From a virus (taxonomy: Duplodnaviria > Heunggongvirae > Uroviricota > Caudoviricetes): a stretch of DNA of 64,000 bases. The stretch lies in IMG/VR virus record IMGVR_UViG_2541047759_000001; one strand, 5' to 3'. A program made the translations under genes and the position numbers. The notes beneath the pieces were generated by a model. That model was not told where the DNA came from. It made no database searches and worked only from the letters and a program-made list of their open reading frames with translations. Positions 4,132 through 57,392 of the stretch are shown piece by piece; the stretch's first letter is position 1, and each line of letters starts with the position of its first letter.

Positions 4132-4884
4132 TGTGCACATCCTTTTGGCATCAGACGTAAACGGGCCAGCATTGAAACAATGCATACTTTATTTAATAAC
4201 TCCCGTTCGTGTTTTCTTTTGTTAATGGCATCTTCAGTAAATACAGGATTACTGATAGTGACACCAATTTCAAAACAACCTTCAGACGTATTAACGTTTG
4301 GTAATAACGTTTTCATTATCGCGCCCTCAACAATGAGTTTTGTGATGCGGTGCCTGGTGCCTCCAGGTGACGTTAACCAGTTAACAATTAACGCCGGATA
4401 CAGAGAATCCACCCATAACACTGTTTTTGGTTTTAACTGTTCCGCGTGCGCTTAGCCGCATTCACCGCATCACAAAATTCACTTTAAAAAGGGCGGCAGA
4501 GCAGTCACGGAGTAAAACTGATACCGCCAAACGTCACCAGAAAATTGATAACAGAGGGCGTTGCAGTGGGGTTGTCACTTAAGCGTATGGTCAACCTGAC
4601 AACCCGGTGTCCTCAACGGGGGAAGGAATAACCCCGCCATACTTACCGCCGCGCCATTTCGCGGATTGCCACAACCGGAAGCGCACGGTCGACGAAAATT
4701 TAACGACAGGCTATCTATGAACCAGCTACCTCGCCGTGCGCTTTCGCGTTATGGTCTGACTTTTCAGGGAAATATCCTTTCAGTAAACTGTCAGTGCCGG
4801 ATGCTCACCCGTGTCCGGCGCACGCACTCCACCTCACCCGTGGAGAACTCCTTAATTACCAACCTTAGCTTCGTTGGTTATCTA

Positions 4885-5103
4885 TTAACGCGGGTATGTA
4901 ATCATTCTGGCAATGCTTAATGCCGCTGCTTTTTCCAGCCTGGTGATATCCTGCTCCAGAGCGGACAGATTTTCAGCCTGCTTAGCTCTGGCTTCATTAG
5001 CCCATTTCAGATCCTGCGCTGCATTAATTTTCTGGCGCATCCACTCATAAAGTTCATCATCGGTATAGTCTGGCGCGATGATGACGGGTTCTCGTTTCTG
5101 CAT
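4885..5103 (-). CDS. Hypothetical early-left operon protein
   Basis: 72-aa ORF with RBS-like GAGGAA upstream; a 42-aa acidic ORF lies immediately upstream at ~5104..5232. Confidence 0.35.
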   Translation of the reverse strand: MQKREPVIIAPDYTDDELYEWMRQKINAAQDLKWANEARAKQAENLSALEQDITRLEKAAALSIARMITYPR

Positions 5104-5710
5104 ACTGATTCCTCGCGGTGCTGTTTCGCTTATCAGCCGTTAGATTTTGCCGAACTGGAAAGCGCCTGTTTAAATTCGTTGAAGCTGTGAGCTTCTTCGC
5201 CTTCGGCAAGGCCTTCGAAGTATTCTTCGTAAGCCTTTTCCATGATTGTGTCAAAATCCATATCACTCACCTGAGTTTCTTTCCAGCCAGCGACGGGCAC
5301 CATTTTCGGTTTTAAACGTTTTGCTTTTTGTATACGTCATTGCGGTGAAGGTGCCGTCCTGGTTTGGAAACACGCCGTACACCAGAGATTCGTTGTTGCC
5401 AAGATCGATAGTATCCATGCTGACCTCATTTCCCCTTAACGCCGGGGTAGCGGAACAAAAACCTGCTGCATAGTTATTAAAGTTGAACCCTGCCGTCATG
5501 TTCTTACGCCTCGGGCTGGCTACTTAACCCCTGACCACTGCCTGGTAACTCGAAGTATTGCCCTGCATTCTGTAGGATGGGGTGAGGGAATGAATGAAGT
5601 TTAGAAAAACGAACTTTTCAGGTCAATGTTTTTTTATCAAAACATTTTAAGCAGGCAGCTGTTAAGCCATCACCACGATGGCATACAGTTAATCAAATAG
5701 ATGAGGTTGG

Positions 5711-6349
5711 TTAAATATCTTGTTGAATTTTAAAGCATACGCCCAATATGCAAGATAGATCATCCAGCATAATTGAAGGGTAGCGAGGATTCGTGGGGAC
5801 TAAAAGAATATCCGGCCCTTCTATCTCCAGTTTACGAATGACAGGTGTTGTGGTCCCTTTGGGTAAGGCAAGGACAATATTTCCTGGTTGTACGGTTCGA
5901 TCGGGATCAACAAAAACTGTTGAACCATTTGGGATGGAAACTCCCCCACCAGATGTTGACATACTGTCACTCTCTAGAACAACTGCAAAGGTATTGACCG
6001 GGATTTCTCCGACAAGCTGCACACAAGAGGTTATTGAGGAATTTTTCATATAATCACTCCAGCTTGCTGCCTGCTGAAGTGATAGTAGCGGAACCGTTTT
6101 TATCGGCGGTAAAGATAGATCAAGCGAATCACCTGTATTTAACTCTCCTCCATTAAGAAGCCAATTTTCGTTTACTTTCAATATTTTTGCCAGTGAACTT
6201 ATGTAACGCGAGGACGGCGCTCCTCCACCGTTCATCCATTGACTTACGGAGCCTTTTGATGCGCCAGTGCCATTGACAAGGTCTTTGCCTTTCAGGTTTA
6301 GCGCATGCATACGTTGGGTTATGCGTTCAGATATAGTTTGCTTGCTCAT
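5711..6349 (-). CDS. cI: CI-type repressor (HTH N-domain plus S24/LexA-like peptidase C-domain)
   Basis: 212 aa; N-terminal HTH (GTGASKGSVSQWMNG), C-terminal DSMS..K autocleavage-like region; divergent from the cro-like gene. Confidence 0.85.
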   Translation of the reverse strand: MSKQTISERITQRMHALNLKGKDLVNGTGASKGSVSQWMNGGGAPSSRYISSLAKILKVNENWLLNGGELNTGDSLDLSLPPIKTVPLLSLQQAASWSDYMKNSSITSCVQLVGEIPVNTFAVVLESDSMSTSGGGVSIPNGSTVFVDPDRTVQPGNIVLALPKGTTTPVIRKLEIEGPDILLVPTNPRYPSIMLDDLSCILGVCFKIQQDI

Positions 6350-6440
6350 GTTTTGATTTTAAAACACAGATGGTTTTGTTTCTTGACTTTCTTTGGTTTT
6401 GATTATTAAACTTTTGACGTTCAGTTTTATGGAGCGACTC

Positions 6441-6683
6441 ATGAAAAAATCAGAAGTATTAGGCTATTTTGGCGGAGTTGTTAAAACAGCCGCAGCTCTA
6501 GGAACGTCAAAAACCACAGTCAGCATGTGGGGGGAAGAGGTTCCGTGGAAATGGGCGTTGCTAATTCAGGCAGTCACTGCCGGGGCGCTCAAATATGAGT
6601 TACACATACCGACGGTTGTCATTCCCGGTTCTGATCATAATCCGCCTTCTAACCAAGGGGGGATTCATGAAAATCAAGCATGA
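6441..6683 (+). CDS. cro: Cro/YdaS-like HTH regulator
   Basis: Small ORF with GGAG RBS, divergent from cI across a ~90-bp AT-rich operator region; MKKSEVLGYFGGVVKTAAALGTSKTTVSMW. Confidence 0.6.
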   Translation: MKKSEVLGYFGGVVKTAAALGTSKTTVSMWGEEVPWKWALLIQAVTAGALKYELHIPTVVIPGSDHNPPSNQGGIHENQA

Positions 6684-7092
6684 ACACATCCGCATGGCGA
6701 TGAATGCCTGGGCGCATCCGGACGGCGAAAAAGTACCGGCTGCGAAAATTACCAAAGCGTATTTCGAGCTGGGAATGACGTTCCCGGAACTGTATGACGA
6801 CAGCCATCCGGAAGCCCTGGCTCGCAATACCCAGAAAATTTTCCGCTGGGTAGAGAAAGACACCCCTGATGCAGTTGAAAAAATTCAGGCGTTGTTACCA
6901 GCGATCGAAAAGGCAATGCCACCTTTGCTGGTGGCCAGAATGCGCAGCCACAGTTCAGCTTATTTTCGGGAGCTGGTGGAGACGCGGGAGCGACTGGTGA
7001 GAGACGCTGATGATTTTGTCGCAGTGGCAATCGCCGGTTTCAATCAGATGAACCGTGGTGGCCCGGCAGGAAATGCTGTGGCAGTACATTGA
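6667..7092 (+). CDS. YdaT/CII-like regulatory protein
   Basis: MKIKHEHI... with ...KIQALLPAIEKAMPP..RSH.SAYFREL...RERLVRDADDF...GGPAGNAVAVH, recalled as the Rac YdaT family. Confidence 0.55.
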   Translation: MKIKHEHIRMAMNAWAHPDGEKVPAAKITKAYFELGMTFPELYDDSHPEALARNTQKIFRWVEKDTPDAVEKIQALLPAIEKAMPPLLVARMRSHSSAYFRELVETRERLVRDADDFVAVAIAGFNQMNRGGPAGNAVAVH

Positions 7093-7157
7093 CTGACAAT
7101 AGCCATATCGAATCGCTTCCGGCAACTCGTGAGTAAAAAGATTCGGTATCAGAAGAG

Positions 7158-8234
7158 GTGAGTATGGCTAACGCCTGGCTCAGATTATGGCATGACATGC
7201 CAAATGACCCTAAGTGGCGAACAATTGCCAGGGTGTCAGGGCAGCCAATTGCAACAGTGATGGCAGTGTATATCCACCTCCTGGTGAGCGCGTCACGAAA
7301 TGTCACGCGAGGTCACATTGATGTCACGACAGAAGATTTGGCAAGTGCGCTCGACGTGACAGAAGAGGTAATTGATTCAATTTTGCAGACGATGCAGGGG
7401 CGGGTACTTGATGGTGATTTAATCACTGGATGGGAAAAACGCCAGGTGCTGAAAGAGGACAACGGCAATATTTCGCAAACCGCAAAATCTCCGGCAGAGC
7501 GCAAGAGGGCGCAGCGAGAGAGGGAAAGAAAGCGGGAACAAAATGGCGATTGTCACGGCGAGTCACGAAATGTCACGCACATGTCACGACGAGTCACGAC
7601 AGATAAAGATACAGATAAAGATACAGATCAAGAAGATCAAAACACTATGGTCCATGGCGTAAAAAACGCCACGAACCAGGCAGGGGATGTTCAGACCGTC
7701 ACTCCTGGCCAGCCCGCAGGCACGACACCGGAAGCCGATTCAGCGTATGCGCTGAAAGCCGATTCGGGCGCTGTGCAGCAGGTGATGACCGCAAGGCAGG
7801 AGCAATCACACCAACTTCAGCAGCCTGAAGCCGATTCCGCCATTCAGCGGGAAGCCGATCGGGTAGTCCCGGAAAACACCGGGCAGCCTGTGGGACGAGT
7901 GGATTATCCTGATGTGTTCGAACAGGTCTGGCGGGAATACCCGTTGCGTGCCGGGGCAAACCCGAAGAAATCCGCTTTCAGTGCCTGGAAAGCCAGATTA
8001 CGCGAGGGGGTGCCACCAGAGGCCATGCTGGATGGCGTGAGGCGTTACGCAAGATACCTTGCGGCTACCGGGAAAACGGGAACGGAATTTGTTCAGCGAG
8101 CGACGACGTTTTTTGGACCGGACCGGAATTTTGAAAACCCCTGGCTGCTCCCGGTAAGCGGCACGAACAACCAGCGTTGTGTGAATCATATTTCTGAACC
8201 GGATAACGAAATTCCGCCGGGCTTCAGGGGGTAA
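7158..8234 (+). CDS. Replication initiation protein (O-like) with origin iterons inside its coding sequence
   Basis: 358 aa; N-terminal WLRLWHDMPNDPKWRTIAR; iteron clusters of GTCACG within the gene. Confidence 0.6.
   Translation: MSMANAWLRLWHDMPNDPKWRTIARVSGQPIATVMAVYIHLLVSASRNVTRGHIDVTTEDLASALDVTEEVIDSILQTMQGRVLDGDLITGWEKRQVLKEDNGNISQTAKSPAERKRAQRERERKREQNGDCHGESRNVTHMSRRVTTDKDTDKDTDQEDQNTMVHGVKNATNQAGDVQTVTPGQPAGTTPEADSAYALKADSGAVQQVMTARQEQSHQLQQPEADSAIQREADRVVPENTGQPVGRVDYPDVFEQVWREYPLRAGANPKKSAFSAWKARLREGVPPEAMLDGVRRYARYLAATGKTGTEFVQRATTFFGPDRNFENPWLLPVSGTNNQRCVNHISEPDNEIPPGFRG
7290..7640. repeat. Prophage replication origin: two GTCACG iteron clusters plus GATAAAGATACAGAT tandem repeat
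   Basis: cgtcacgaaatgtcacgcgaggtcacattgatgtcacgac at ~7291-7330 and gtcacgaaatgtcacgcacatgtcacgacgagtcacgac at ~7561-7600, then gataaagatacagataaagatacagat. Confidence 0.55.
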
Positions 8235-8274
8235 GTGTTAATTTCTGGTCATGAGGTAATTTTCAGGAGGGCTT

Positions 8275-8697
8275 GTGGCAAAAGTTTTTACACAAGAAGA
8301 GCGGGAAAAAATTAAAGGACAGGTTCTTGAACTCGTACGCCAGAGTGGGCGCGAGACGTTACGACAACTGGAAGCTAAAACTGGGGCAACAAGATATCTG
8401 ATGAGCGTTCTGGCCAGAGAGCTGGTTGCCAGTGGCGATGTATACAATTCTGGCTACGGGTTATTCCCGTCTGAACAGGCTCGTAAAGACTGGCAAAATG
8501 CCCGCAAAAAATTATCGAGGGCAAAGCTGAAGAAACCGGTTGTGGTTGATCCGGACCTTATCTGGTCGTTACCTGACGGAGAAATACGTCGCTACGACAG
8601 TCGCCTAAACATAATCTGTCGCGAGTGCCGGAAGAGTGAAGCTATGCAGCGTGTACTGGCTTTCTATCAGGGTAATTTTCAGGAGGCGGTACTGTGA
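8275..8697 (+). CDS. Hypothetical protein (replication-region)
   Basis: 140-aa ORF following the initiator; no signature recognised. Confidence 0.45.
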   Translation: MAKVFTQEEREKIKGQVLELVRQSGRETLRQLEAKTGATRYLMSVLARELVASGDVYNSGYGLFPSEQARKDWQNARKKLSRAKLKKPVVVDPDLIWSLPDGEIRRYDSRLNIICRECRKSEAMQRVLAFYQGNFQEAVL

Positions 8698-8754
8698 GTG
8701 AAATTAGCTATCAGGCTTCAATTACCGCTGGCATTCGCATCAAAGGAGAGGAGC

Positions 8755-9111
8755 ATGGAAATAAAACCAGAGGATGAGTTAAGCAATATCGTTTTATTTC
8801 CGGTAAAAGAGGATGACCCTCGTAATCAGGTTAATTTTCTTTATGAGCCATCGGAAAGACCATATTGTCATCACGCCTCTGTCCGGGTTGACGAAAAAGA
8901 GCGTCAGGTCCGCTGTAAAATCTGCGGTGCAGTTGTGGAGCCATTTGACTGGATGCTCTCTGTGGCGAAAAGAGAAAGCAGACTGGCAGATGATGTAAGG
9001 CTCTTGCGTCAGGAGGAGCGGGAAAGGCGAAAAAATATAGAAAAGCTAATTCAGATTGAGCGTAACGCGAAAGCGCGGATACGCAGGGCGACAAAATCCA
9101 GAACTGAATAA
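8755..9111 (+). CDS. Hypothetical protein with CxxC zinc-ribbon-like motif
   Basis: ATG at 8755 preceded by AGGAGAGGAG; contains CHH...CKICG. Alternative GTG start at 8698. Confidence 0.45.
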   Translation: MEIKPEDELSNIVLFPVKEDDPRNQVNFLYEPSERPYCHHASVRVDEKERQVRCKICGAVVEPFDWMLSVAKRESRLADDVRLLRQEERERRKNIEKLIQIERNAKARIRRATKSRTE

Positions 9112-9204
9112 TTAAATTTAGCTCTGTTAAAAATTTAATCCTTAACCGGAGGGATTTCTGCACCCTCAGAACATCAGGAGGCCGCCCGAAAGGGCGGTAG
9201 TTAA

Positions 9205-9387
9205 ATGCGAAAGTTTAAAATAATTATTGAAACGGGAATAGCCGGTGGAGATTTCGAGGATGAATTCGAAGTGGATGATGATGCGACGCCTGATGAAATA
9301 CATGACGAAGCAAAAGATATTTTCTTTAACTACTGCAATTACTCATATCACGAAATAAAAGACAAAGAGGAAGAACAAAATGGCTGA
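9205..9387 (+). CDS. Small acidic hypothetical protein (nin-region)
   Basis: 60-aa ORF, strongly acidic. Confidence 0.3.
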   Translation: MRKFKIIIETGIAGGDFEDEFEVDDDATPDEIHDEAKDIFFNYCNYSYHEIKDKEEEQNG

Positions 9388-9552
9388 TTTTGGTTCAACT
9401 AAATACAACGTCAGTTTTGAAGAATGGCATGAACTGTTAATGGACTATGCAGAGTTACGTGGTGGCAGTGCTGCTGATGCTGAAGCATGGCGTGATGATT
9501 ATGAAGCAGGAAAAACTCCGGTCGAAGCATATTGTGATGAGTGGGGCGATGA

Positions 9553-9810
9553 ATGAGCGAGGTTAATTATCAGGAAGGGCATGAAACGGCGGGGCAAGCA
9601 AAAACAGTGGCATGGCGATATCGCTACGTGAAAAAAAAGGCGTTACGGACTTTCAGGGGAAGTAGTGGTCTGGTGACTGGAAATATGTACCGAAAAAAGA
9701 GGATTGTAACGACAGGCCGAACTATGAAATTCAGGCCTTATTCACTGCCTCGCCAGTCCCGGTTACATCAGAAGAACTGGTTAAAGCTGTGCACTTTTAT
9801 GAACAACTAA
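9553..9810 (+). CDS. Hypothetical protein (nin-region)
   Basis: 85-aa basic ORF. Confidence 0.3.
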   Translation: MSEVNYQEGHETAGQAKTVAWRYRYVKKKALRTFRGSSGLVTGNMYRKKRIVTTGRTMKFRPYSLPRQSRLHQKNWLKLCTFMNN

Positions 9811-10039
9811 AACGCGAAAATCCACCAGCATCCGGAAACCTGATTACAGATTCCCAGATAAGGCAATGAGCTACCTGGCGCAGAACGGGCTGATAAGTAT
9901 GGGGAATGTTTTACGATGAATATTTAGACTAAAGAGTTTGTAACGCTATGTAAGTGATTTTTTCTGGTTTAGATATTTATATGTCCGGCCAAACTGAGGT
10001 GTGTTTAAATGTAATTGCACATTGATTGTAGGAGGAATA

Positions 10040-10219
10040 ATGAAAAACGCATTGCAGTTTTTGTTTGTTGCGTTCTGGTTGTTCGTATCATGTATGCCCA
10101 TCATCTTCACAGCAAGGTATATGGAAAAAGTTGATGTTTTGATATTAATATTTGGATATATAAATGCCCTTTTTTTAGGGGTGTTCATGGCGGTCATGTG
10201 CATTGAATACTGGCGGTAA
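10040..10219 (+). CDS. Small membrane protein (moron)
   Basis: ATG at 10040 with GGAGG RBS; hydrophobic 59 aa; AT-rich surroundings. Confidence 0.45.
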   Translation: MKNALQFLFVAFWLFVSCMPIIFTARYMEKVDVLILIFGYINALFLGVFMAVMCIEYWR

Positions 10220-10498
10220 ATACAGCGAACGCCATTGGTTTAGTTGGATATTTACTGTGCCGGACAAAAACGGTTTGCGGGGAAATCTTAGTTAAGTAGA
10301 ATGACTGCGGGTGCTTGAGGCTATCTGTCTCAGGCATGAACACCAAAAGGCAGATAGAGAAAAGCCCCAGTTAACATTACGCGTCCTGCAAGACGCTTAA
10401 CATTAATCTGAGGCCATATCTATGCGACACATAGAGATTAGCCTCTTACGGACCGAAAGGTCAAGGAGAAGCAGGCTATGAAGCAGCAAAAGGCGATG

Positions 10499-10654
10499 TT
10501 AATCGCCCTGATCGTCATCTGTTTAACCGTCATAGTGACGGCACTGGTAACGAGGAAAGACCTCTGCGAGGTACGAATCCGAACCGGCCAGACGGAGGTC
10601 GCTGTCTTCACAGCTTACGAACCTGAGGAGTAAGAGACCTGGCGGGGGAGAAAT
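10499..10654 (+). CDS. hok: Hok/Gef-family type I toxin (51 aa)
   Basis: MKQQKAMLIALIVICLTVIVTALVTRKDLCEVRIRTGQTEVAVFTAYEPEE: TM helix plus conserved C..R..G..EV.AF.AYE tail; terminator-like cccgcttcggcggg + T-run downstream. Not in the ORF track (<60 aa). Confidence 0.75.
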
Positions 10655-10800
10655 CCCTCGCCACCTCTGATGTGTCAGGCATCCTCAACGCACCCGCACT
10701 TAACCCGCTTCGGCGGGTTTTGTTTTTTCCTGGCATTCTGGTTTACAATTCGCACGTCAGCCTGAACACCTGACACCTGCTGCGCCAGCAGAGAAAACAG

Positions 10801-53163: not shown

Positions 53164-54450
53164 ATGAATACTGGATATTCTCCCGAACAAGGGCGGGGCT
53201 TCGTTCGTCCTGAAAAACAGAATCTGCAAAATTTTGCCGAAATTATTCCGGTTATTTCCGGCCTTACTGGCGGGAGTGAAACCAATATTGTTAACGCCAG
53301 AGCGTTGCAGATGTTTGATGATAAAAAGGGAGTAAATTTAACTTACACCCCTGACGGCAATCAGAATATGAGCATTATCTCTGAGTCAGGTTTCTACAAA
53401 CTAATAAAAACAAAAAGCGCCCCGTTGCCGGAGCGCCTTTGTGAACAATTAACCTACTGCGCAAAAAATGAATCTGAGCAGTGGGATTATATCAACCATG
53501 TGGAGAAGCGCCACAATTGCCGAATAACGGGCAAAACAAAGGCCACCCGCTACGGTGGCCCCTCGACACAAGCTACACGTTATCCCCAACGCATGAGCAT
53601 TGCCAACAATGCCACATTTGCGGCTGGTGGGCAATGCAATCAGTCAGGTTCAGTTCGTTGCCATACCTGCAATGAGCGCTTTTCCCTGTACTCTTTAAGG
53701 AATTGCTCAAGGGCAAAAGCACATGGCGCGAATCTTTCTGATTCATGCTCTATCTTTCTGCGCCGTCTTTTCCGTGCCGGTGATAATGTTTTGGTCAATT
53801 CTTTATCGGTCATTGTGTTGTCCTGCATAGCAATGCGCCGTAGTTACTCACACCACGGCGCTGGTGATGGTTACTCCTGCTCTTTGGCCTTGCGGCGCTG
53901 GCGGCGTTTGATCTCGCCTTGCATTGACGCAATGATGAATTGTGATGTGCTTTCGCCTGATTCTTTCACTGATTCCATGGCGTTTACTATTTCGTGTGGT
54001 ACACGAGCCTTTAGAGCTTGTGATTTTGCGTTTGTTGTACCCGTTGCCATTTCTATTCCTCTGTTGGATTGGTGGGGGACAGTATACACAGAAAAAGCAC
54101 AAATAAAACCCTTGACGTGGGCCACACCTAAAGCATATAGTGGGCCACACCTTGAGATTATCAAGGTGCATAAATGCAAAGCCCCGCAAGTGTCGTTACC
54201 ACTCGCAGGGCTTCTAACCACCAACGATAGCGAAAGTATCGAGGTAGCTATGTTAAATCATACCACACACCCGCAAGGGCGGGACTCGCACAACCTGAAT
54301 AAATACATCTGGCGTTTTATCGCCCTGAGCACGGCACAACCGCGCGTGATTACCATTGAGGCCACCAGCGAACAGGAAGCACGCCAGCAATCTCCGGCTG
54401 GCTGCGTGATGGTATTTGCTGCCCGTATTCGTCAGGGGGTAGGCTTATGA
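53164..54450 (+). CDS. Long ORF of doubtful reality (428 codons); only the last 66 codons (54250..54450) look like a coupled small gene
   Basis: Open frame without stop, but the middle is Cys/Arg/Ser-rich, spans a promoter/operator region and is antisense to a well-formed RHH gene. Confidence 0.2.
   Translation: MNTGYSPEQGRGFVRPEKQNLQNFAEIIPVISGLTGGSETNIVNARALQMFDDKKGVNLTYTPDGNQNMSIISESGFYKLIKTKSAPLPERLCEQLTYCAKNESEQWDYINHVEKRHNCRITGKTKATRYGGPSTQATRYPQRMSIANNATFAAGGQCNQSGSVRCHTCNERFSLYSLRNCSRAKAHGANLSDSCSIFLRRLFRAGDNVLVNSLSVIVLSCIAMRRSYSHHGAGDGYSCSLALRRWRRLISPCIDAMMNCDVLSPDSFTDSMAFTISCGTRAFRACDFAFVVPVAISIPLLDWWGTVYTEKAQIKPLTWATPKAYSGPHLEIIKVHKCKAPQVSLPLAGLLTTNDSESIEVAMLNHTTHPQGRDSHNLNKYIWRFIALSTAQPRVITIEATSEQEARQQSPAGCVMVFAARIRQGVGL
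53871..54050 (-). CDS. Ribbon-helix-helix (Arc/CopG-like) DNA-binding protein, candidate island repressor
   Basis: MATGTTNAKSQALKARVPHEIVNAMESVKESGESTSQFIIASMQGEIKRRQRRKAKEQE; AGAGGA RBS; divergent from a promoter with operator repeats. Confidence 0.5.
   Translation of the reverse strand: MATGTTNAKSQALKARVPHEIVNAMESVKESGESTSQFIIASMQGEIKRRQRRKAKEQE
54112..54151 (+). promoter_or_regulatory. Rightward promoter (TTGACG ... TATAGT) overlapped by two GTGGGCCACACC operator repeats
   Basis: -35 at 54112-54117, -10 at 54136-54141; GTGGGCCACACC at 54117-54128 and 54140-54151. Confidence 0.45.
54250..54450 (+). CDS. Small hypothetical protein, first gene of the rightward island operon
   Basis: ATG 54250 with GAGG RBS; 66 aa; stop overlaps next start (ATGA). 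Confidence 0.45.
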   Translation: MLNHTTHPQGRDSHNLNKYIWRFIALSTAQPRVITIEATSEQEARQQSPAGCVMVFAARIRQGVGL

Positions 54451-54677
54451 GCCAGGAAATCACACTACAACAGGCAGCAGAACGCGCCCACCAAATCGAA
54501 GTTATTTGCGCACTGGCAGAGGATTACCCTGGCATGATGACCGACAGCGAATCAGGGGCAATCATCGGCTTACTTAAACGCCTTAGCGGTGAGGTCTGCG
54601 TATTCCTGAGCGATGAACAGGAAAGAAGAACGCTTATTTCTAACGAAAAAAAATGCGGAGGGGTACATGTGCAATAA
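54447..54677 (+). CDS. Hypothetical protein
   Basis: 76 aa, translationally coupled. Confidence 0.45.
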   Translation: MSQEITLQQAAERAHQIEVICALAEDYPGMMTDSESGAIIGLLKRLSGEVCVFLSDEQERRTLISNEKKCGGVHVQ

Positions 54678-55101
54678 AACCACACCGGACGCAGCCGCCG
54701 CCGCACTCACTACGCTGATGCACGCGCTTATTGATATTGAATGCACGGCAGAGCTTGCGCAGGGAGAAGAACAGAAAGACCGGACACAGTTCGCCCTGGA
54801 ATGTATCCGATACATCGCAACGCGGTCGCTGAATGACGCTAAAAATATTCTTGTTGCTGATTGTGAAAATGGGGGGGTTATGCGTGATGATCGTTTTAAT
54901 TCCCTGAAACAGGAATTTTCCGGCGTTCCTGATGATGCGGCTGATGCGCTTTCGTCAATGCCAGAGCTTATTAGAGCGGATTTTTTCTTACTTTCCACGA
55001 GAGAATATAAATCAACGGGGCTTGATGTACTGAATATCGCCGCCGATTATGCTGATTTCGTGACAGAGGTTATTTTAAGAAAAACGACGGACGGGGATTA
55101 A
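54667..55101 (+). CDS. Hypothetical protein
   Basis: ATG 54667 with GGAGGGG RBS; 144 aa. Confidence 0.45.
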   Translation: MCNKTTPDAAAAALTTLMHALIDIECTAELAQGEEQKDRTQFALECIRYIATRSLNDAKNILVADCENGGVMRDDRFNSLKQEFSGVPDDAADALSSMPELIRADFFLLSTREYKSTGLDVLNIAADYADFVTEVILRKTTDGD

Positions 55102-55102
55102 T

Positions 55103-55336
55103 ATGCGTGATATTTACCACGAAACAATAGACCGCGCATTTCTTGCACTTTCTCACAGTGAAAATATGTTGGAAATATTGCGCATATGTCTTGAAACGCT
55201 TGGAGATAATGAACGTGATAAACAGAAATCAAGGATTGTCACGGCATTAATAACGCTTCTTGAGCCTGTAATAAATGAGTTGCAGGAAATAGAGACATTA
55301 CACGACCAGTATAAAGCGCCCCACACCGGAGAATAA
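55103..55336 (+). CDS. Hypothetical protein
   Basis: 77 aa. Confidence 0.4.
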   Translation: MRDIYHETIDRAFLALSHSENMLEILRICLETLGDNERDKQKSRIVTALITLLEPVINELQEIETLHDQYKAPHTGE

Positions 55337-55341
55337 AAATA

Positions 55342-55641
55342 ATGAAACTTAAATATTCTGGCTTAACTGCCAGTGGCAAAACTCGCACTAAATTCATGCG
55401 CGGTGATATTTACCGCGATAAGTACGGCGGCACGGTAATGATTAAGGGCGTGGAGGAACGGCGCGTAACCTACCGTCGTGAAGGCTACGAATATGATTGC
55501 GTGATGCCTGTTTATCAGTTCGACCGTGATTTTTCTCTTGTGCAGGCCGTACCGCGTAACGTGCCCACCAGCAGGGAGAAAGCACGCGCCAATATTCAGA
55601 AGATGAAAACCATGATTAAAGGATTCAGGGGTAAAAAATGA
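55342..55641 (+). CDS. Hypothetical protein
   Basis: 99 aa, overlaps primase start. Confidence 0.4.
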   Translation: MKLKYSGLTASGKTRTKFMRGDIYRDKYGGTVMIKGVEERRVTYRREGYEYDCVMPVYQFDRDFSLVQAVPRNVPTSREKARANIQKMKTMIKGFRGKK

Positions 55642-57392
55642 AACTGGCACCGAACGTAAAACAGCAGTCACGCGGCATAAAACACAAAGGAACAGAAGTC
55701 ATTATTTTTGCGGGTAGTGATGCCTGGGCACACGCGAAACAATGGCAGGAACATGATGCGCGTATGGCCGGAGATAATGAGCCTCCTGTGTGGCTTGGGG
55801 AGCAGCAGTTATCAGAACTGGATAAGCTGCAAATTGTGCCGGAAGGCAGAAAATCCGTGCGCATATTCAGGGCCGGATATCTTGCGCCAGTAATGATAAA
55901 GGCGATTGGCCAGAAGCTGGCGGCGGCAGGCGTACAGGATGCAAATTTTTACCCTGATGGTATGCACGGTCAGAAGGTGGAGAACTGGCGCGAATATCTG
56001 GCCCGTGAGCGCCAGAATCTTTCTGATGGTCTGGTCATTGAGCTTCCGGTAAAGCAAAAGGCGCAACTTTCGCAGATGGCGGACAGTGAGCGCGCGCAGC
56101 TGCTTGCCGATCGCTTTGATGGCGTTTGCGTACATCCTGAAAGTGAAATCGTTCACGTATGGCGCGGCGGGGTATGGTGTCCGGTCAGCACAATGGAACT
56201 TAGCCGCGAAATGGTGGCGATCTATTCAGAGCACAGGGCCACTTTCAGCAAGCGCGTAATCAATAACGCCGTGGAAGCGTTAAAAGTTATTGCCGAACCA
56301 ATGGGCGAGCCGTCCGGCGATTTGCTGCCGTTCGCCAATGGTGCGCTTGACCTGAAAACGGGGGGATTTTCCCCGCACACGCCGGAGAACTGGATCACCA
56401 CGCACAACGGCATTGAGTACACGCCACCAGCACCAGGGGAGAACATCCGCGATAACGCGCCAAACTTTCATAAATGGCTTGAGCACGCAGCCGGAAAAGA
56501 CCCGCGCAAGATGATGCGTATATGTGCCGCGCTGTACATGATTATGGCGAACCGGTACGACTGGCAGATGTTTATTGAGGCCACCGGAGACGGCGGGAGC
56601 GGTAAAAGTACATTCACGCACATAGCCAGCCTTCTGGCAGGGAAACAGAACACGGTAAGCGCTGAAATGACATCGCTTGATGATGCTGGTGGACGTGCGC
56701 AGGTTGTCGGGAGTCGTCTTATCGTCCTGGCTGACCAGCCGAAATATACAGGCGAAGGAACGGGCATCAAGAAAATCACGGGCGGTGACCCCGTGGAAAT
56801 TAACCCGAAATACGAAAAGCGTTTCACGGCTGTAATCAGGGCGGTGGTGCTGGCGACCAACAATAACCCGATGATATTCACCGAACGGGCCGGAGGTGTG
56901 GCACGTCGTCGCGTGATTTTCCGTTTCGACAATATCGTCAGTGAGGCCGAAAAAGACAGGGAGCTACCGGAAAAGATCGCGGCTGAAATCCCTGTCATTA
57001 TCCGCCGATTGCTGGCGAACTTTACCGACCCTGAGAAGGCACGGGCTTTACTACTGGAACAGCGTGACGGTGATGAAGCACTGGCAATAAAGCAACAGAC
57101 GGATCCGGTTATTGAGTTTTGCCAGTTCCTGAATTTTCTGGAGGAAGCGCGCGGCCTGATGATGGGGGGCGGTGGCGATTCAGTGAAGTACACGACCAGG
57201 AACAGCCTTTACCGCGTCTATCTGGCGTTTATGGCATACGCAGGCAGGAGCAAACCGCTAAACGTAAATGACTTTGGAAAGGCTATGAAGCCTGCCGCAA
57301 AAGTTTACGGACATGAATATATTACGCGGAAAGTTAAGGGGGTAACGCAGACTAACGCAATAACAACAGACGAGTGCGACGCGTTTTTATAA
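55638..57392 (+). CDS. Primase/replication protein, P4-type D5-like NTPase (pri-rep)
   Basis: 584 aa; Walker A GDGGSGKST; D5-N-like region upstream; followed directly by iterons. Confidence 0.8.
   Translation: MKLAPNVKQQSRGIKHKGTEVIIFAGSDAWAHAKQWQEHDARMAGDNEPPVWLGEQQLSELDKLQIVPEGRKSVRIFRAGYLAPVMIKAIGQKLAAAGVQDANFYPDGMHGQKVENWREYLARERQNLSDGLVIELPVKQKAQLSQMADSERAQLLADRFDGVCVHPESEIVHVWRGGVWCPVSTMELSREMVAIYSEHRATFSKRVINNAVEALKVIAEPMGEPSGDLLPFANGALDLKTGGFSPHTPENWITTHNGIEYTPPAPGENIRDNAPNFHKWLEHAAGKDPRKMMRICAALYMIMANRYDWQMFIEATGDGGSGKSTFTHIASLLAGKQNTVSAEMTSLDDAGGRAQVVGSRLIVLADQPKYTGEGTGIKKITGGDPVEINPKYEKRFTAVIRAVVLATNNNPMIFTERAGGVARRRVIFRFDNIVSEAEKDRELPEKIAAEIPVIIRRLLANFTDPEKARALLLEQRDGDEALAIKQQTDPVIEFCQFLNFLEEARGLMMGGGGDSVKYTTRNSLYRVYLAFMAYAGRSKPLNVNDFGKAMKPAAKVYGHEYITRKVKGVTQTNAITTDECDAFL

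What the first reader, a model, noticed from the sequence alone, without database searches (positions are those of the whole stretch)
53871..54160. Divergent RHH regulator and operator-overlapped promoter: likely satellite induction switch
A 59-aa ribbon-helix-helix ORF on the minus strand (53871..54050) faces a rightward sigma70-like promoter (TTGACG/TATAGT) overlapped by two copies of GTGGGCCACACC spaced 23 bp apart. This promoter would drive the operon from 54250 through the primase. It is the architecture expected of a master repressor that a helper signal must relieve.
Basis: partly seen in the sequence, partly recalled or inferred. Interest (0 to 1): 0.6.

Follow-up and report, generated by a model that had tools for sequence, protein, structure and literature searches.

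The report
Overlooked repressor switch in EcCICFT073 satellite
The best-studied Gram-negative phage satellite (the E. coli island EcCICFT073) carries a small, previously overlooked DNA-binding repressor gene whose matched binding sites cover the promoter of its replication genes, which matters because these islands were thought to have no known repressor.

Summary
The 59-aa ORF (53871..54050, minus) has a ribbon-helix-helix (RHH) fold. It faces a promoter, TTGACG-18-TATAGT (54112..54141), carrying two exact GTGGGCCACAC sites (54117, 54140). A third, degenerate site (54072) lies over the ORF's own -10.

Across 73 homologous loci in Enterobacterales the three sites keep fixed positions, while their central bases change with residues 10-17 of the protein. 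There are 27 residue classes, and the match beat 20000 of 20000 permutations. This is strong indirect evidence for a repressor-operator pair.

The island is EcCICFT073, the prototype Gram-negative PICI. Its gene sits antisense inside the old ORF c1487 and is not mentioned in the EcCICFT073 papers I could search.

The "helper must relieve it" part is not supported. Published work on this island shows that AlpA is necessary, and that AlpA alone is sufficient to start replication.

My best model is that the RHH protein is an immunity and establishment repressor of an internal promoter equivalent to P4's PLE. AlpA-driven read-through, running antisense to the repressor gene, would bypass or silence it.

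I also found that the plus-strand frame across the repressor gene is kept open by selection, and that the leader contains a conserved structured hairpin. I rate the finding a new variant of a known kind, interest 0.68.

The parts
53871..54050 (-). RHH repressor gene (59 aa; YlcI/YnfO family; WP_000190587.1, C_RS30120 in CFT073).
54072..54082 (.). O3: degenerate operator copy GTGGGGGACAG overlapping the -10 of the repressor's own promoter (inferred autoregulation).
   Evidence: It matches O1 at 8 of 11 positions. The same site lies 45 bp from O1 in nearly all homologous loci, with 1-2 mismatches to the local O1.
54081..54086 (-). -10 hexamer TATACT of the leftward promoter P_L that drives the RHH gene.
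   Evidence: TATACT sits at a fixed offset in 64 of 69 unique loci. No good -35 was found. This is inferred and not experimentally mapped.
54112..54141 (+). Rightward promoter P_R: TTGACG, 18-bp spacer, TATAGT.
   Evidence: Found. The -35 is invariant in position in 69 of 69 unique loci and the -10 has the form TAnnnT.
54117..54127 (.). O1: operator GTGGGCCACAC, abutting the -35 and filling the promoter spacer.
54140..54150 (.). O2: operator GTGGGCCACAC, overlapping the -10 and the predicted transcription start.
   Evidence: In other loci it lies 22-25 or 35 bp from O1, in direct or inverted orientation.
54150..54166 (+). 5'-terminal leader hairpin CCUUGA-gauua-UCAAGG.
   Evidence: Predicted by folding. 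Similar hairpins follow O2 in many loci. It was not tested for covariation.
54179..54225 (+). Conserved leader hairpin (54179..54213) plus the C-rich tail CUAACCACCAAC. Function unknown.
   Evidence: Of 10 pairs, 7 show compensatory changes; 92.5% of cells are paired against 44% or less in slid controls. The covariance model finds one sense-strand copy per locus. No Rfam family matches.
54250..54450 (+). First gene of the rightward operon: Icd-like (P4 Kil-like) protein, 66 aa.
   Evidence: NCBIfam NF033153, E = 1.4e-19. It matches phrog_6196, a family annotated 'transcriptional repressor', and is similar to the C-terminus of the P4 'cI' ORF.
54447..57392 (+). Rest of the operon: small ORFs, a DUF4222 protein, and the D5_N/DUF5906 primase (55638..57392).
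   Evidence: The genes overlap or abut.
53164..54450 (+). c1487: a 428-aa stop-free frame that starts after alpA, runs antisense through ORF62 and the RHH gene, then through P_R and the leader, and ends in frame with the Icd-like ORF (resembles P4 eta/kil).
   Evidence: Exact match to AAN79956.1. The frame is open in 68 of 70 unique homologous RHH coding sequences, and wobble-T before CA codons is avoided (p = 4e-33).
53640..53828 (-). ORF62, the second gene of the leftward transcript (phrog_21027, unknown function).
   Evidence: It is absent from the 72 non-E. coli loci and present in L082.
53413..53440 (-). Intrinsic terminator of the leftward RHH-ORF62 transcript. It has a T-run on the minus strand only.
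   Evidence: 12-bp stem, 7 GC pairs. One search shows no T-run on the plus strand.
52923..53111 (+). alpA, the experimentally established activator of this island. It is convergent with the RHH gene.
   Evidence: Pfam Phage_AlpA, E = 3e-17. PMC6092414. The convergent alpA/RHH arrangement recurs in many loci.

Best explanation
The 59-aa protein is a ribbon-helix-helix repressor of the phage satellite EcCICFT073.

Inferred binding and repression:
- Dimers bind three 11-bp sites of the form GTG-N5-CAC.
- O1 (54117) fills the spacer of the rightward promoter P_R, and O2 (54140) covers its -10 and start site. Together they would shut off the Icd-like to primase (replication) operon.
- O3 (54072) covers the -10 of the repressor's own leftward promoter, giving negative autoregulation.
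- P_R is the counterpart of P4's internal PLE promoter. It would fire when the island enters a repressor-free cell and then be shut off as repressor accumulates. This would provide establishment, maintenance and element-specific immunity.

Induction:
- Shown by others: helper infection turns on alpA, and AlpA autoactivates.
- Inferred: transcription from the alpA promoter continues into the long ORF c1487, whose translation keeps the roughly 1.3-kb stretch free of Rho-dependent termination.
- Inferred: this read-through runs antisense through the repressor gene, which would interfere with its transcription and pair with its mRNA. It then passes P_R into the replication genes.
- AlpA would therefore bypass the repressor and at the same time silence it.

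What is directly seen in the sequence: the ORF, the sites, the promoters, and their conservation and co-variation.
For: Fold:
- AlphaFold2 gives pLDDT 90, with an extended strand at 10-17, a helix at 19-28, a G-x-S turn, and a helix at 35-58.

Operators:
- In 73 loci from many Enterobacterales genera, the sites sit at fixed offsets from the gene's ATG: O3 at 24, O1 at 69, and O2 at +22-25 or +35.
- Their central 5 bases track residues 10-17 of the protein. Examples: SQALKARV with GGCCA, SKKLEARV with GCTGA, SQQLNARF with CGATT, SQMTTVRI with TATTT, SLQVSVRL with GTGTT.
- O1 and O2 within a locus differ by 0.67 mismatches per 11, against 3.98 between classes. The permutation test gave 0 of 20000.

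The operator class follows the RHH gene and not its neighbours:
- L002, L004 and L005 share the window's operator, although their AlpA is only 38% identical or undetected, and no Icd-like or primase homologue was detected.
- L081 has a primase operon about 94% identical in DNA but a different RHH allele and matching different operators.
- L082 has an Arc-like RHH in the same slot, with two copies of ATGGTAATTACC over the same promoter.

Promoters: both are conserved in position.

Read-through model:
- alpA is convergent with the RHH gene.
- The only terminator between alpA and the RHH gene that has a strong stem (12 bp) is minus-strand-only; the three plus-strand terminator-like sites there are weak.
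- The c1487 frame is kept open, with wobble-T before CA codons in 2 of 321 cases against 23.8% elsewhere.
- Where the frames differ, an ATGA overlap couples them.
- P4 offers a precedent in vis-eta/kil (PMC10111431).
- AlpA-dependent expression of 'ORF3' and sufficiency of AlpA were shown experimentally (PMC6092414).
Against: - There is no experiment on this protein. DNA binding, repression and both transcription start sites are all inferred.
- Co-variation of adjacent sequences is partly expected from linkage alone. The antisense-encoded stretch of c1487 co-varies trivially as well.
- P_L has no recognisable -35.
- If read-through from the alpA promoter suffices for induction, the role of P_R and its repression in the life cycle is untested.
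- The open c1487 frame might reflect a functional protein instead of a mere anti-polarity device.
Confidence: 0.6

Rival explanations
1. The RHH protein is an Stl-like master repressor, and a helper-phage protein must bind and inactivate it to induce the island.
For: The divergent repressor/operon layout resembles the stl/str layout of Gram-positive PICIs (PMC6092414). The helper-encoded inducer of EcCICFT073 is still unidentified. Some alleles carry a 45-aa C-terminal extension that could be a sensor domain (L081).
Against: In this very island, AlpA overexpression without any helper causes excision and runaway replication, and deleting alpA abolishes transfer even when a helper is present (PMC6092414). 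No operator lies at the alpA or int promoters. The 59-aa protein has no domain beyond the RHH fold.
Confidence: 0.15
2. The RHH protein is the antitoxin and autoregulator of a type II toxin-antitoxin pair with the downstream ORF62. The repeats only autoregulate that pair.
Against: ORF62 is absent from the 72 other loci although the RHH gene and its operators are kept. The two perfect sites sit on the divergent promoter, and only the degenerate one sits on the repressor's own promoter. The protein has no C-terminal toxin-binding tail. ORF62 matches no NCBIfam family and only an unnamed PHROG family; it was not scanned against PADLOC.
Confidence: 0.05
3. The repeats are bound by another island protein, either AlpA as activator sites or the primase/Rep protein as iterons. 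The small ORF would then be irrelevant to them.
For: AlpA activates downstream genes. P4 alpha protein binds short repeats, and one operator class, GTGGTGTTCACC, contains the P4 type-1 iteron TGTTCACC. That iteron sequence is from my own recollection and was not checked here; one search lists only the positions of the P4 repeats.
Against: The same operator class occurs with an AlpA that is 38% identical or undetectable, and with no detectable primase homologue within 3.8 kb. A primase operon about 94% identical occurs with different operators. The sites track the RHH beta strand one-to-one. The mapped PICI origin is reported to lie with the replication genes (PMC10111431).
Confidence: 0.05
4. 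The minus-strand ORF is not expressed. The real gene is c1487 on the plus strand, and the apparent protein conservation is a by-product of that.
For: The c1487 frame is clearly under selection to stay open, and some annotations call only c1487.
Against: The minus-strand product folds confidently as an RHH protein. It has conservative substitutions, a curated NCBIfam family, and a conserved Shine-Dalgarno sequence and -10. Its variable residues predict the operator sequence. The plus-strand translation of this stretch is Cys/Arg-rich and matches no domain.
Confidence: 0.05

Closest known systems
Phage P22 immI: the Mnt (and Arc) RHH repressors acting at O_mnt/P_ant
   Same: A small RHH repressor is transcribed divergently from the operon it controls. 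Its operator overlaps the promoter, and the face-to-face promoters allow autoregulation. This comparison rests on established knowledge and was not tested here.
   Different: The operon here encodes an Icd/Kil-like protein and replication genes, not an antirepressor. There are three separate 11-bp GTG-N5-CAC sites in place of one 17-21-bp symmetric operator. There is no sequence similarity: Pfam Arc does not match the window protein. The gene is embedded antisense in another open frame.
Satellite P4 immunity region (vis - eta/kil with internal PLE, seqA and CI RNA) leading to the alpha primase
   Same: An alpA/vis homologue is followed immediately by a long ORF (c1487, like eta) that holds an internal sigma-70 promoter with the same -10 (TATAGT). 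A nested in-frame Icd/Kil-like ORF follows, and then the primase operon (PMC10111431).
   Different: P4 uses the CI RNA pairing with seqA/seqC and premature termination, and has no protein repressor. The window has no C4 or isrK RNA and instead has the RHH protein with its operators. A related island (L082) has both layers.
Phage P1 immI (C1-controlled P51 - c4 RNA - icd - ant)
   Same: A repressor-controlled promoter is followed by a structured leader RNA and an icd-type first gene. This is most evident in L082, where the order is RHH operators, leader, isrK/C4, Icd-like.
   Different: The repressor is a 59-aa RHH protein encoded next door, not C1. No ant gene is present. The leader hairpin here is not C4.
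Stl/Rpr master repressors of Gram-positive PICIs (SaPIs)
   Same: A satellite-encoded repressor is divergent from the replication operon and presumably holds the island quiescent.
   Different: Stl proteins are larger HTH proteins that are inactivated by helper proteins and are co-oriented with int. Here the repressor is a tiny RHH protein opposite in orientation to int, and the proven inducer route is the activator AlpA (PMC6092414).
Omega (pSM19035) and ParG/CopG-type RHH regulators that bind arrays of short repeats
   Different: These are plasmid copy-number or partition regulators. Their unit is a heptad, not the 11-mer GTG-N5-CAC. No ParA partner is present here.

Membership tests
Ribbon-helix-helix (MetJ/Arc/CopG) superfamily | Beta-strand, helix A, helix B topology in about 45 residues. 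| tested here: met
   The AlphaFold2 model has pLDDT 90, with an extended segment at 10-17, a helix at 19-28 and a helix at 35-58.
Ribbon-helix-helix (MetJ/Arc/CopG) superfamily | Structural similarity to solved RHH domains. | tested here: met
Ribbon-helix-helix (MetJ/Arc/CopG) superfamily | Sequence-profile match to a curated RHH family (Pfam RHH_1, Arc, CopG and similar). | tested here: not met
   No Pfam RHH hit at E <= 0.05. No PDB sequence hit.
Ribbon-helix-helix (MetJ/Arc/CopG) superfamily | G-x-S/T turn before helix B, and alternating polar and hydrophobic residues on the strand. | tested here: met
   G32-E33-S34 is conserved. In the strand S10-Q-A-L-K-A-R16-V, S10 and R16 are invariant, positions 12 and 14 are variable, and positions 13 and 17 are hydrophobic.
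Ribbon-helix-helix (MetJ/Arc/CopG) superfamily | Homodimer whose two-stranded ribbon binds repeated DNA sites. | not testable with these tools
   The evidence is only indirect: three sites per locus co-vary with the strand residues.
YlcI/YnfO family (NCBIfam NF041551) | HMM score above the curated cutoff. | tested here: met
   67.4 bits against a cutoff of 30. K-12 YlcI itself is only a distant relative (BLASTP E = 0.17) and sits next to cos/nohD.
Gram-negative PICI (EcCICFT073) | Same element as the published prototype. | tested here: met
   The RefSeq protein accessions for every gene from int to the last ORF are identical in CFT073 between roxA and phoQ. c1487 is an exact match to AAN79956.1.
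Stl/Rpr-type PICI master repressor | Divergent from the replication operon. | tested here: met
Stl/Rpr-type PICI master repressor | Co-oriented with and adjacent to int; HTH DNA-binding domain. | tested here: not met
   int is on the plus strand and the RHH gene on the minus strand, with alpA between them. The fold is RHH, not HTH.
Stl/Rpr-type PICI master repressor | Derepressed by a helper-phage protein binding to it. | not testable with these tools
   The literature argues against this being necessary, since AlpA alone induces the island (PMC6092414).
P4-type immunity region | A vis/alpA homologue followed by a long ORF with a nested in-frame Kil/Icd-like ORF and an internal promoter. | tested here: met
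P4-type immunity region | CI (Rfam C4) and seqA (Rfam isrK) RNAs downstream of the internal promoter. | tested here: not met
   None found in the window even at E <= 10. Both are found in P4 and in the related island L082.
Type II toxin-antitoxin (RHH antitoxin) | A conserved partner toxin gene in the same operon. | tested here: not met
   ORF62 is not found next to the RHH gene in any of the 72 other loci.

The most novel reading that the evidence does not exclude
Gram-negative PICIs would possess a dedicated immunity repressor after all, in roughly 20 or more mutually distinct specificities that define satellite 'immunity groups'. Its gene would be deliberately encoded antisense inside a translated read-through ORF (c1487, resembling P4 eta). 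The activator AlpA would then flip the switch by driving coupled transcription and translation straight through the repressor gene. That would silence the repressor, sweep its operators and deliver RNA polymerase to the replication genes in a single act. The result would be an overlapping-gene bistable switch not described for any phage or satellite.
Probability: 0.3. Interest if true: 0.85.

Novelty: new variant of a known kind. Interest (0 to 1): 0.68.

Why it matters
EcCICFT073 is the reference Gram-negative phage-inducible chromosomal island. [quoted passage not shown]

The gene found here was hidden on the opposite strand of the originally annotated ORF c1487. It is not mentioned in any of the EcCICFT073 papers I could search.

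If the RHH protein represses the replication operon, several things follow:
- It supplies the missing OFF component of the switch.
- It predicts element-specific immunity classes that can be read directly from the sequence.
- It explains why synthetic or engineered PICIs may need this region intact.
- It gives a simple set of experiments on an existing model system.

The antisense nesting under a frame kept open by selection is also a clean natural example of dual-strand coding constraint.

Tried and rejected
- Rfam search of the window and of the 1.1-kb region: there is no C4, isrK or other family in the leader. The weak symR hits in two loci are below threshold and on the opposite strand, so I dismissed them.
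- Pfam on the target: no match.
- PDB sequence-profile search: only chance hits.
- blastn of the region against phage genomes, including P4: no DNA similarity. The P4 parallel is one of organisation and of the Icd/Kil-like protein only (BLASTP E = 0.06 pairwise; shared NCBIfam and PHROG families).
- K-12 YlcI context in DLP12: the gene is divergent from nohD/cos, has no GTG-N5-CAC array and is only distantly related. It is uninformative for function.
- Idea that the repeats are replication iterons or AlpA sites: rejected on the basis of module swaps.
- Idea of a toxin-antitoxin pair with ORF62: rejected because ORF62 is not conserved.
- Search for further operator copies at the alpA, int or late promoters: none found. 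The only extra GTG-N5-CAC-like sequence lies inside the RHH coding region, at the conserved RVPH codons, and is probably a coding by-product.
- Search for extra copies of the leader hairpin with a covariance model: one per locus, and none in P4, DLP12 or the CFT073 helper prophage.
- Literature searches for an RHH, Arc or CopG repressor in PICIs, for YlcI/YnfO function, and for c1487: nothing relevant.
Full report
**1. What is in the sequence**

The window is E. coli chromosome. The finding lies in an 11-kb island between roxA (ycfD) and phoQ. In order, the island carries:
- int (51307..52557, +)
- alpA (52923..53111, +; Pfam Phage_AlpA, 3e-17)
- two small minus-strand ORFs (53640..53828 and the target 53871..54050)
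- a plus-strand operon: an Icd-like ORF (54250..54450), small ORFs, a DUF4222 protein and a D5-type primase (55638..57392)
- SSB, PerC, a captured major capsid and decoration gene, and a TerS-like gene

Every protein in the island has the same RefSeq accession as in E. coli CFT073 at the same chromosomal site. The island is therefore EcCICFT073, the prototype Gram-negative phage-inducible chromosomal island (PICI).

- The ORF is 59 aa.
- The promoter is TTGACG (54112..54117), an 18-bp spacer, and TATAGT (54136..54141).
- GTGGGCCACACC occurs exactly twice in 64 kb, at 54117 and 54140, with no one-mismatch copies.

**2. The protein**

Pfam gives no hit. NCBIfam places the protein in the YlcI/YnfO family (67 bits against a cutoff of 30), a family without a known function.

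A database search returned 55 relatives across Enterobacterales. Their alignment shows:
- invariant S10, R16, P18, E33, F38 and EIKRR
- a G-x-S turn
- variable residues at positions 11-15

AlphaFold2, run with that alignment, gives a confident model (pLDDT 90). It has an extended segment at 10-17 and two helices.

The RHH assignment is therefore supported by fold but not by any curated sequence family.

**3. The repeats are operators that co-evolve with the protein**

A scan of one genome per species gave 78 loci encoding relatives. I could analyse the upstream region in 73 of them.

In nearly all of these loci the region upstream of the gene has the same plan:
- A site GTG-N5-CAg overlaps a conserved TATACT, the -10 of a leftward promoter. 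TATACT sits at a fixed offset in 64 of 69 unique sequences.
- A second site lies 45 bp further on, immediately after an invariant TTGAnn -35 (69 of 69).
- A third site lies 22-25 or 35 bp beyond that, over or just after a TAnnnT -10. It can be in direct or inverted orientation.

The outer GTG...CAC is mostly constant. The central five bases differ between loci but are the same at the three sites within a locus, and they track residues 10-17 of the protein:

| Residues 10-17 | Central bases |
|---|---|
| SQALKARV, SQSLKSRV | GGCCA |
| SKKLEARV | GCTGA |
| SQQLNARF | CGATT |
| SQMTTVRI | TATTT |
| SQTLAARV | TTCAA |
| SKRFDVRV | TCSGA |
| SLQVSVRL | GTGTT |

There are 27 strand classes in all. 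Classes that share an operator differ only by A/S, K/R or V/I/L substitutions.

O1 and O2 within a locus differ by 0.67 of 11 bases, against 3.98 between classes. With one representative per class, no permutation out of 20000 did as well.

Positions 12 and 14, which should point outward on an RHH strand, appear to set the specificity. That last point is inference.

In the window, the third site is the degenerate GTGGGGGACAG at 54072..54082.

**4. The operator class follows this gene and not its neighbours**

- L002, L004 and L005 carry the window's operator. Their AlpA is only 38% identical or undetected, and no Icd-like or primase homologue was detected within about 3.8 kb.
- E. coli ATCC 25922 (L081) has a downstream operon about 94% identical in DNA, but a different RHH allele (SQSLTARI, with a 45-aa C-terminal extension) and matching GTGTAAGnCAC-type sites.
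- E. coli 2003-3014 (L082) has an Arc-like RHH gene in the same slot, with two copies of ATGGTAATTACC over the equivalent promoter.

These three natural swaps argue against the repeats being AlpA sites or replication iterons.

A toxin-antitoxin reading with ORF62 is unlikely, because ORF62 is missing from the 72 other loci.

No further operator copy exists at the alpA, int or late-gene regions. The protein is therefore a local regulator of the divergent promoter pair.

**5. Context: a P4-like read-through architecture with the repressor nested antisense**

The plus strand carries a 428-codon stop-free frame (53164..54450). It starts 53 nt after alpA, runs antisense across ORF62 and the RHH gene, continues through the promoter and leader, and ends as the Icd-like ORF. 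It is exactly 'hypothetical protein c1487' of the original CFT073 annotation (AAN79956.1). That explains why the minus-strand gene was not seen in the early work.

The frame is not an accident:
- In 70 unique homologous RHH coding sequences, the corresponding antisense frame is stop-free in 68. The other two antisense frames are stop-free in 2 and 0 of the 70.
- A wobble T before a CA-starting codon would create TGA on the other strand. It occurs in 2 of 321 cases, against 23.8% elsewhere (Fisher p = 4e-33).
- The frame is open for 600-1300 nt in most loci.
- It is in phase with the Icd-like start in 29 of 44 unique loci. Elsewhere it ends in an ATGA overlap with the next start.
- It often begins right after alpA with a conserved M-x-DKTKAAPHGRQC motif.

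This mirrors satellite P4. There the alpA homologue vis is translationally coupled to eta. Eta contains the internal constitutive promoter PLE and the nested gene kil, and translation of eta prevents premature termination (PMC10111431).

The P4 Kil-like ORF is recognisably Icd-like, and PLE has the same TATAGT -10. P4 controls PLE transcripts with the CI RNA and seqA (Rfam C4 and isrK). The window has neither. L082 has the RHH operators and the isrK/C4 pair in series.

The RHH-operator unit is thus a protein layer placed on the PLE-equivalent promoter. In EcCICFT073 it is the only recognisable repressor layer.

**6. The leader**

The roughly 100-nt leader folds better than shuffled controls (z = -3.0).

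Its central hairpin (54179..54213) is followed by CUAACCACCAAC and is conserved in all loci, including L082. Seven of its 10 pairs show compensatory changes, and 92.5% of cells are paired against 44% or less when the partners are slid.

A covariance model finds exactly one sense-strand copy per locus. It finds none in P4, DLP12 or the CFT073 helper prophage. The hairpin matches no Rfam family, and its role is unknown.

**7. How it most likely works**

*Seen in sequence.* The gene, three matched sites, two back-to-back conserved promoters, a minus-strand-only terminator after ORF62 (53413..53440), alpA convergent with the RHH gene, and the selected open frame.

*Shown by others for this island (PMC6092414).*
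- AlpA is an activator and autoactivates.
- Helper phages lambda and phi80 switch on alpA independently of SOS.
- Deleting alpA abolishes transfer.
- AlpA overexpression without a helper causes excision and uncontrolled replication.
- Expression of 'ORF3', most likely c1487, depends on alpA.

*Inferred.*
- RHH dimers at O1 and O2 block RNA polymerase at P_R and keep the Icd-like to primase operon off. O3 provides autoregulation.
- P_R would fire on entry into a naive cell and be shut off as repressor accumulates, as PLE is in P4. This would also give class-specific immunity.
- On induction, transcripts from the alpA promoter, kept Rho-resistant by translation of c1487, run antisense through the repressor gene and across P_R into the replication genes. 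They would bypass repression and lower repressor synthesis.

I rank it as a minority alternative.

**8. Comparison and novelty**

Functionally the unit resembles P22 Mnt at P_ant, and omega- or CopG-type RHH regulators that use short repeated sites. Organisationally it is a variant of the P4 vis-eta/kil-PLE region and of the logic of P1 immI. It is not an Stl-type repressor.

I found no description of it in the searchable papers on EcCICFT073 or on PICIs. The searches were made, and the papers consulted were PMC6092414, PMC6739421, PMC10460865, PMC10111431 and PMC11773190 (PMC10530653 appeared in the search results but was not opened). The defining paper calls the existence of a Gram-negative PICI repressor unclear. 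Subscription-only literature could not be checked.

The module is common:
- The exact protein sequence is recorded on 874 contigs.
- Part of the 901-bp region matches 1751 of 5426 complete E. coli genomes.

**Verdict**

The feature is real. The repressor-operator reading has strong comparative support but no experimental support, and the helper-relief interpretation needs correction. I class it as a new variant of a known kind, of clear interest to satellite biology because it can be tested immediately in the model system.

Noticed in passing
window 53164..54450 (+): c1487 is a 428-codon frame that runs antisense over the RHH gene and ORF62 and ends in frame with the Icd-like ORF. Selection keeps it open: the frame is stop-free in 68 of 70 homologous coding sequences, and wobble T before CA codons occurs in 0.6% of cases against 23.8% elsewhere (p = 4e-33). 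It resembles P4 eta/kil.
   Followed up: partly
window 54179..54225 (+): A conserved leader hairpin plus the C-rich tail CUAACCACCAAC. Seven of its 10 pairs show compensatory changes. There is a single sense-strand copy per locus, and no Rfam family matches. Its function is unknown.
   Followed up: partly
window 52585..52649 and 52846..52870: Five tandem 10-bp units (ACAACnnGAA-like) lie just after int. A related copy overlaps the putative alpA promoter (TTGCCA-17-CACAAT, 52832..52860). These are candidate AlpA or helper-activator sites.
   Followed up: no
window 53116..53163: A GC-rich hairpin (GGCTGGCGGC-acaca-GCCGCCACC) lies immediately after the alpA stop codon. It is followed by TCTAACCATG, the start of c1487. 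The same TCTAACCA motif follows the leader hairpin.
   Followed up: no
L082 2750..3440 (E. coli 2003-3014, NZ_CP101292.1): The same slot holds a different, Arc-like RHH gene (57 aa), with two copies of ATGGTAATTACC over a TTGACA/TATACT promoter. It is followed by the same leader hairpin, then an ash ORF containing Rfam isrK and C4 (P4 seqA/CI-like), then the Icd-like ORF. Protein and RNA immunity layers are therefore arranged in series.
   Followed up: partly
L081 2750..3260 (E. coli ATCC 25922): This RHH allele has a roughly 45-aa C-terminal extension and GTGTAAGnCAC-type operators, next to a replication operon about 94% identical to the window's. It is a natural cassette swap.
   Followed up: partly
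window 53994..54004: An operator-like sequence, GTGTGGTACAC, lies inside the RHH coding region at the conserved R-V-P-H codons. It could be an auxiliary site or merely a coding by-product.
   Followed up: no
window 53640..53828 (-): ORF62 is a basic 62-aa protein (phrog_21027) co-transcribed with the RHH gene. It is also present downstream of the Arc-like RHH gene in L082, but absent outside E. coli. Its function is unknown.
   Followed up: partly
window 4491..14614: Rfam finds DicF, sok, STnc100 and two tRNAs (Met and Arg). These indicate a lambdoid prophage or remnant upstream of potAB. It is unrelated to the finding.
   Followed up: no
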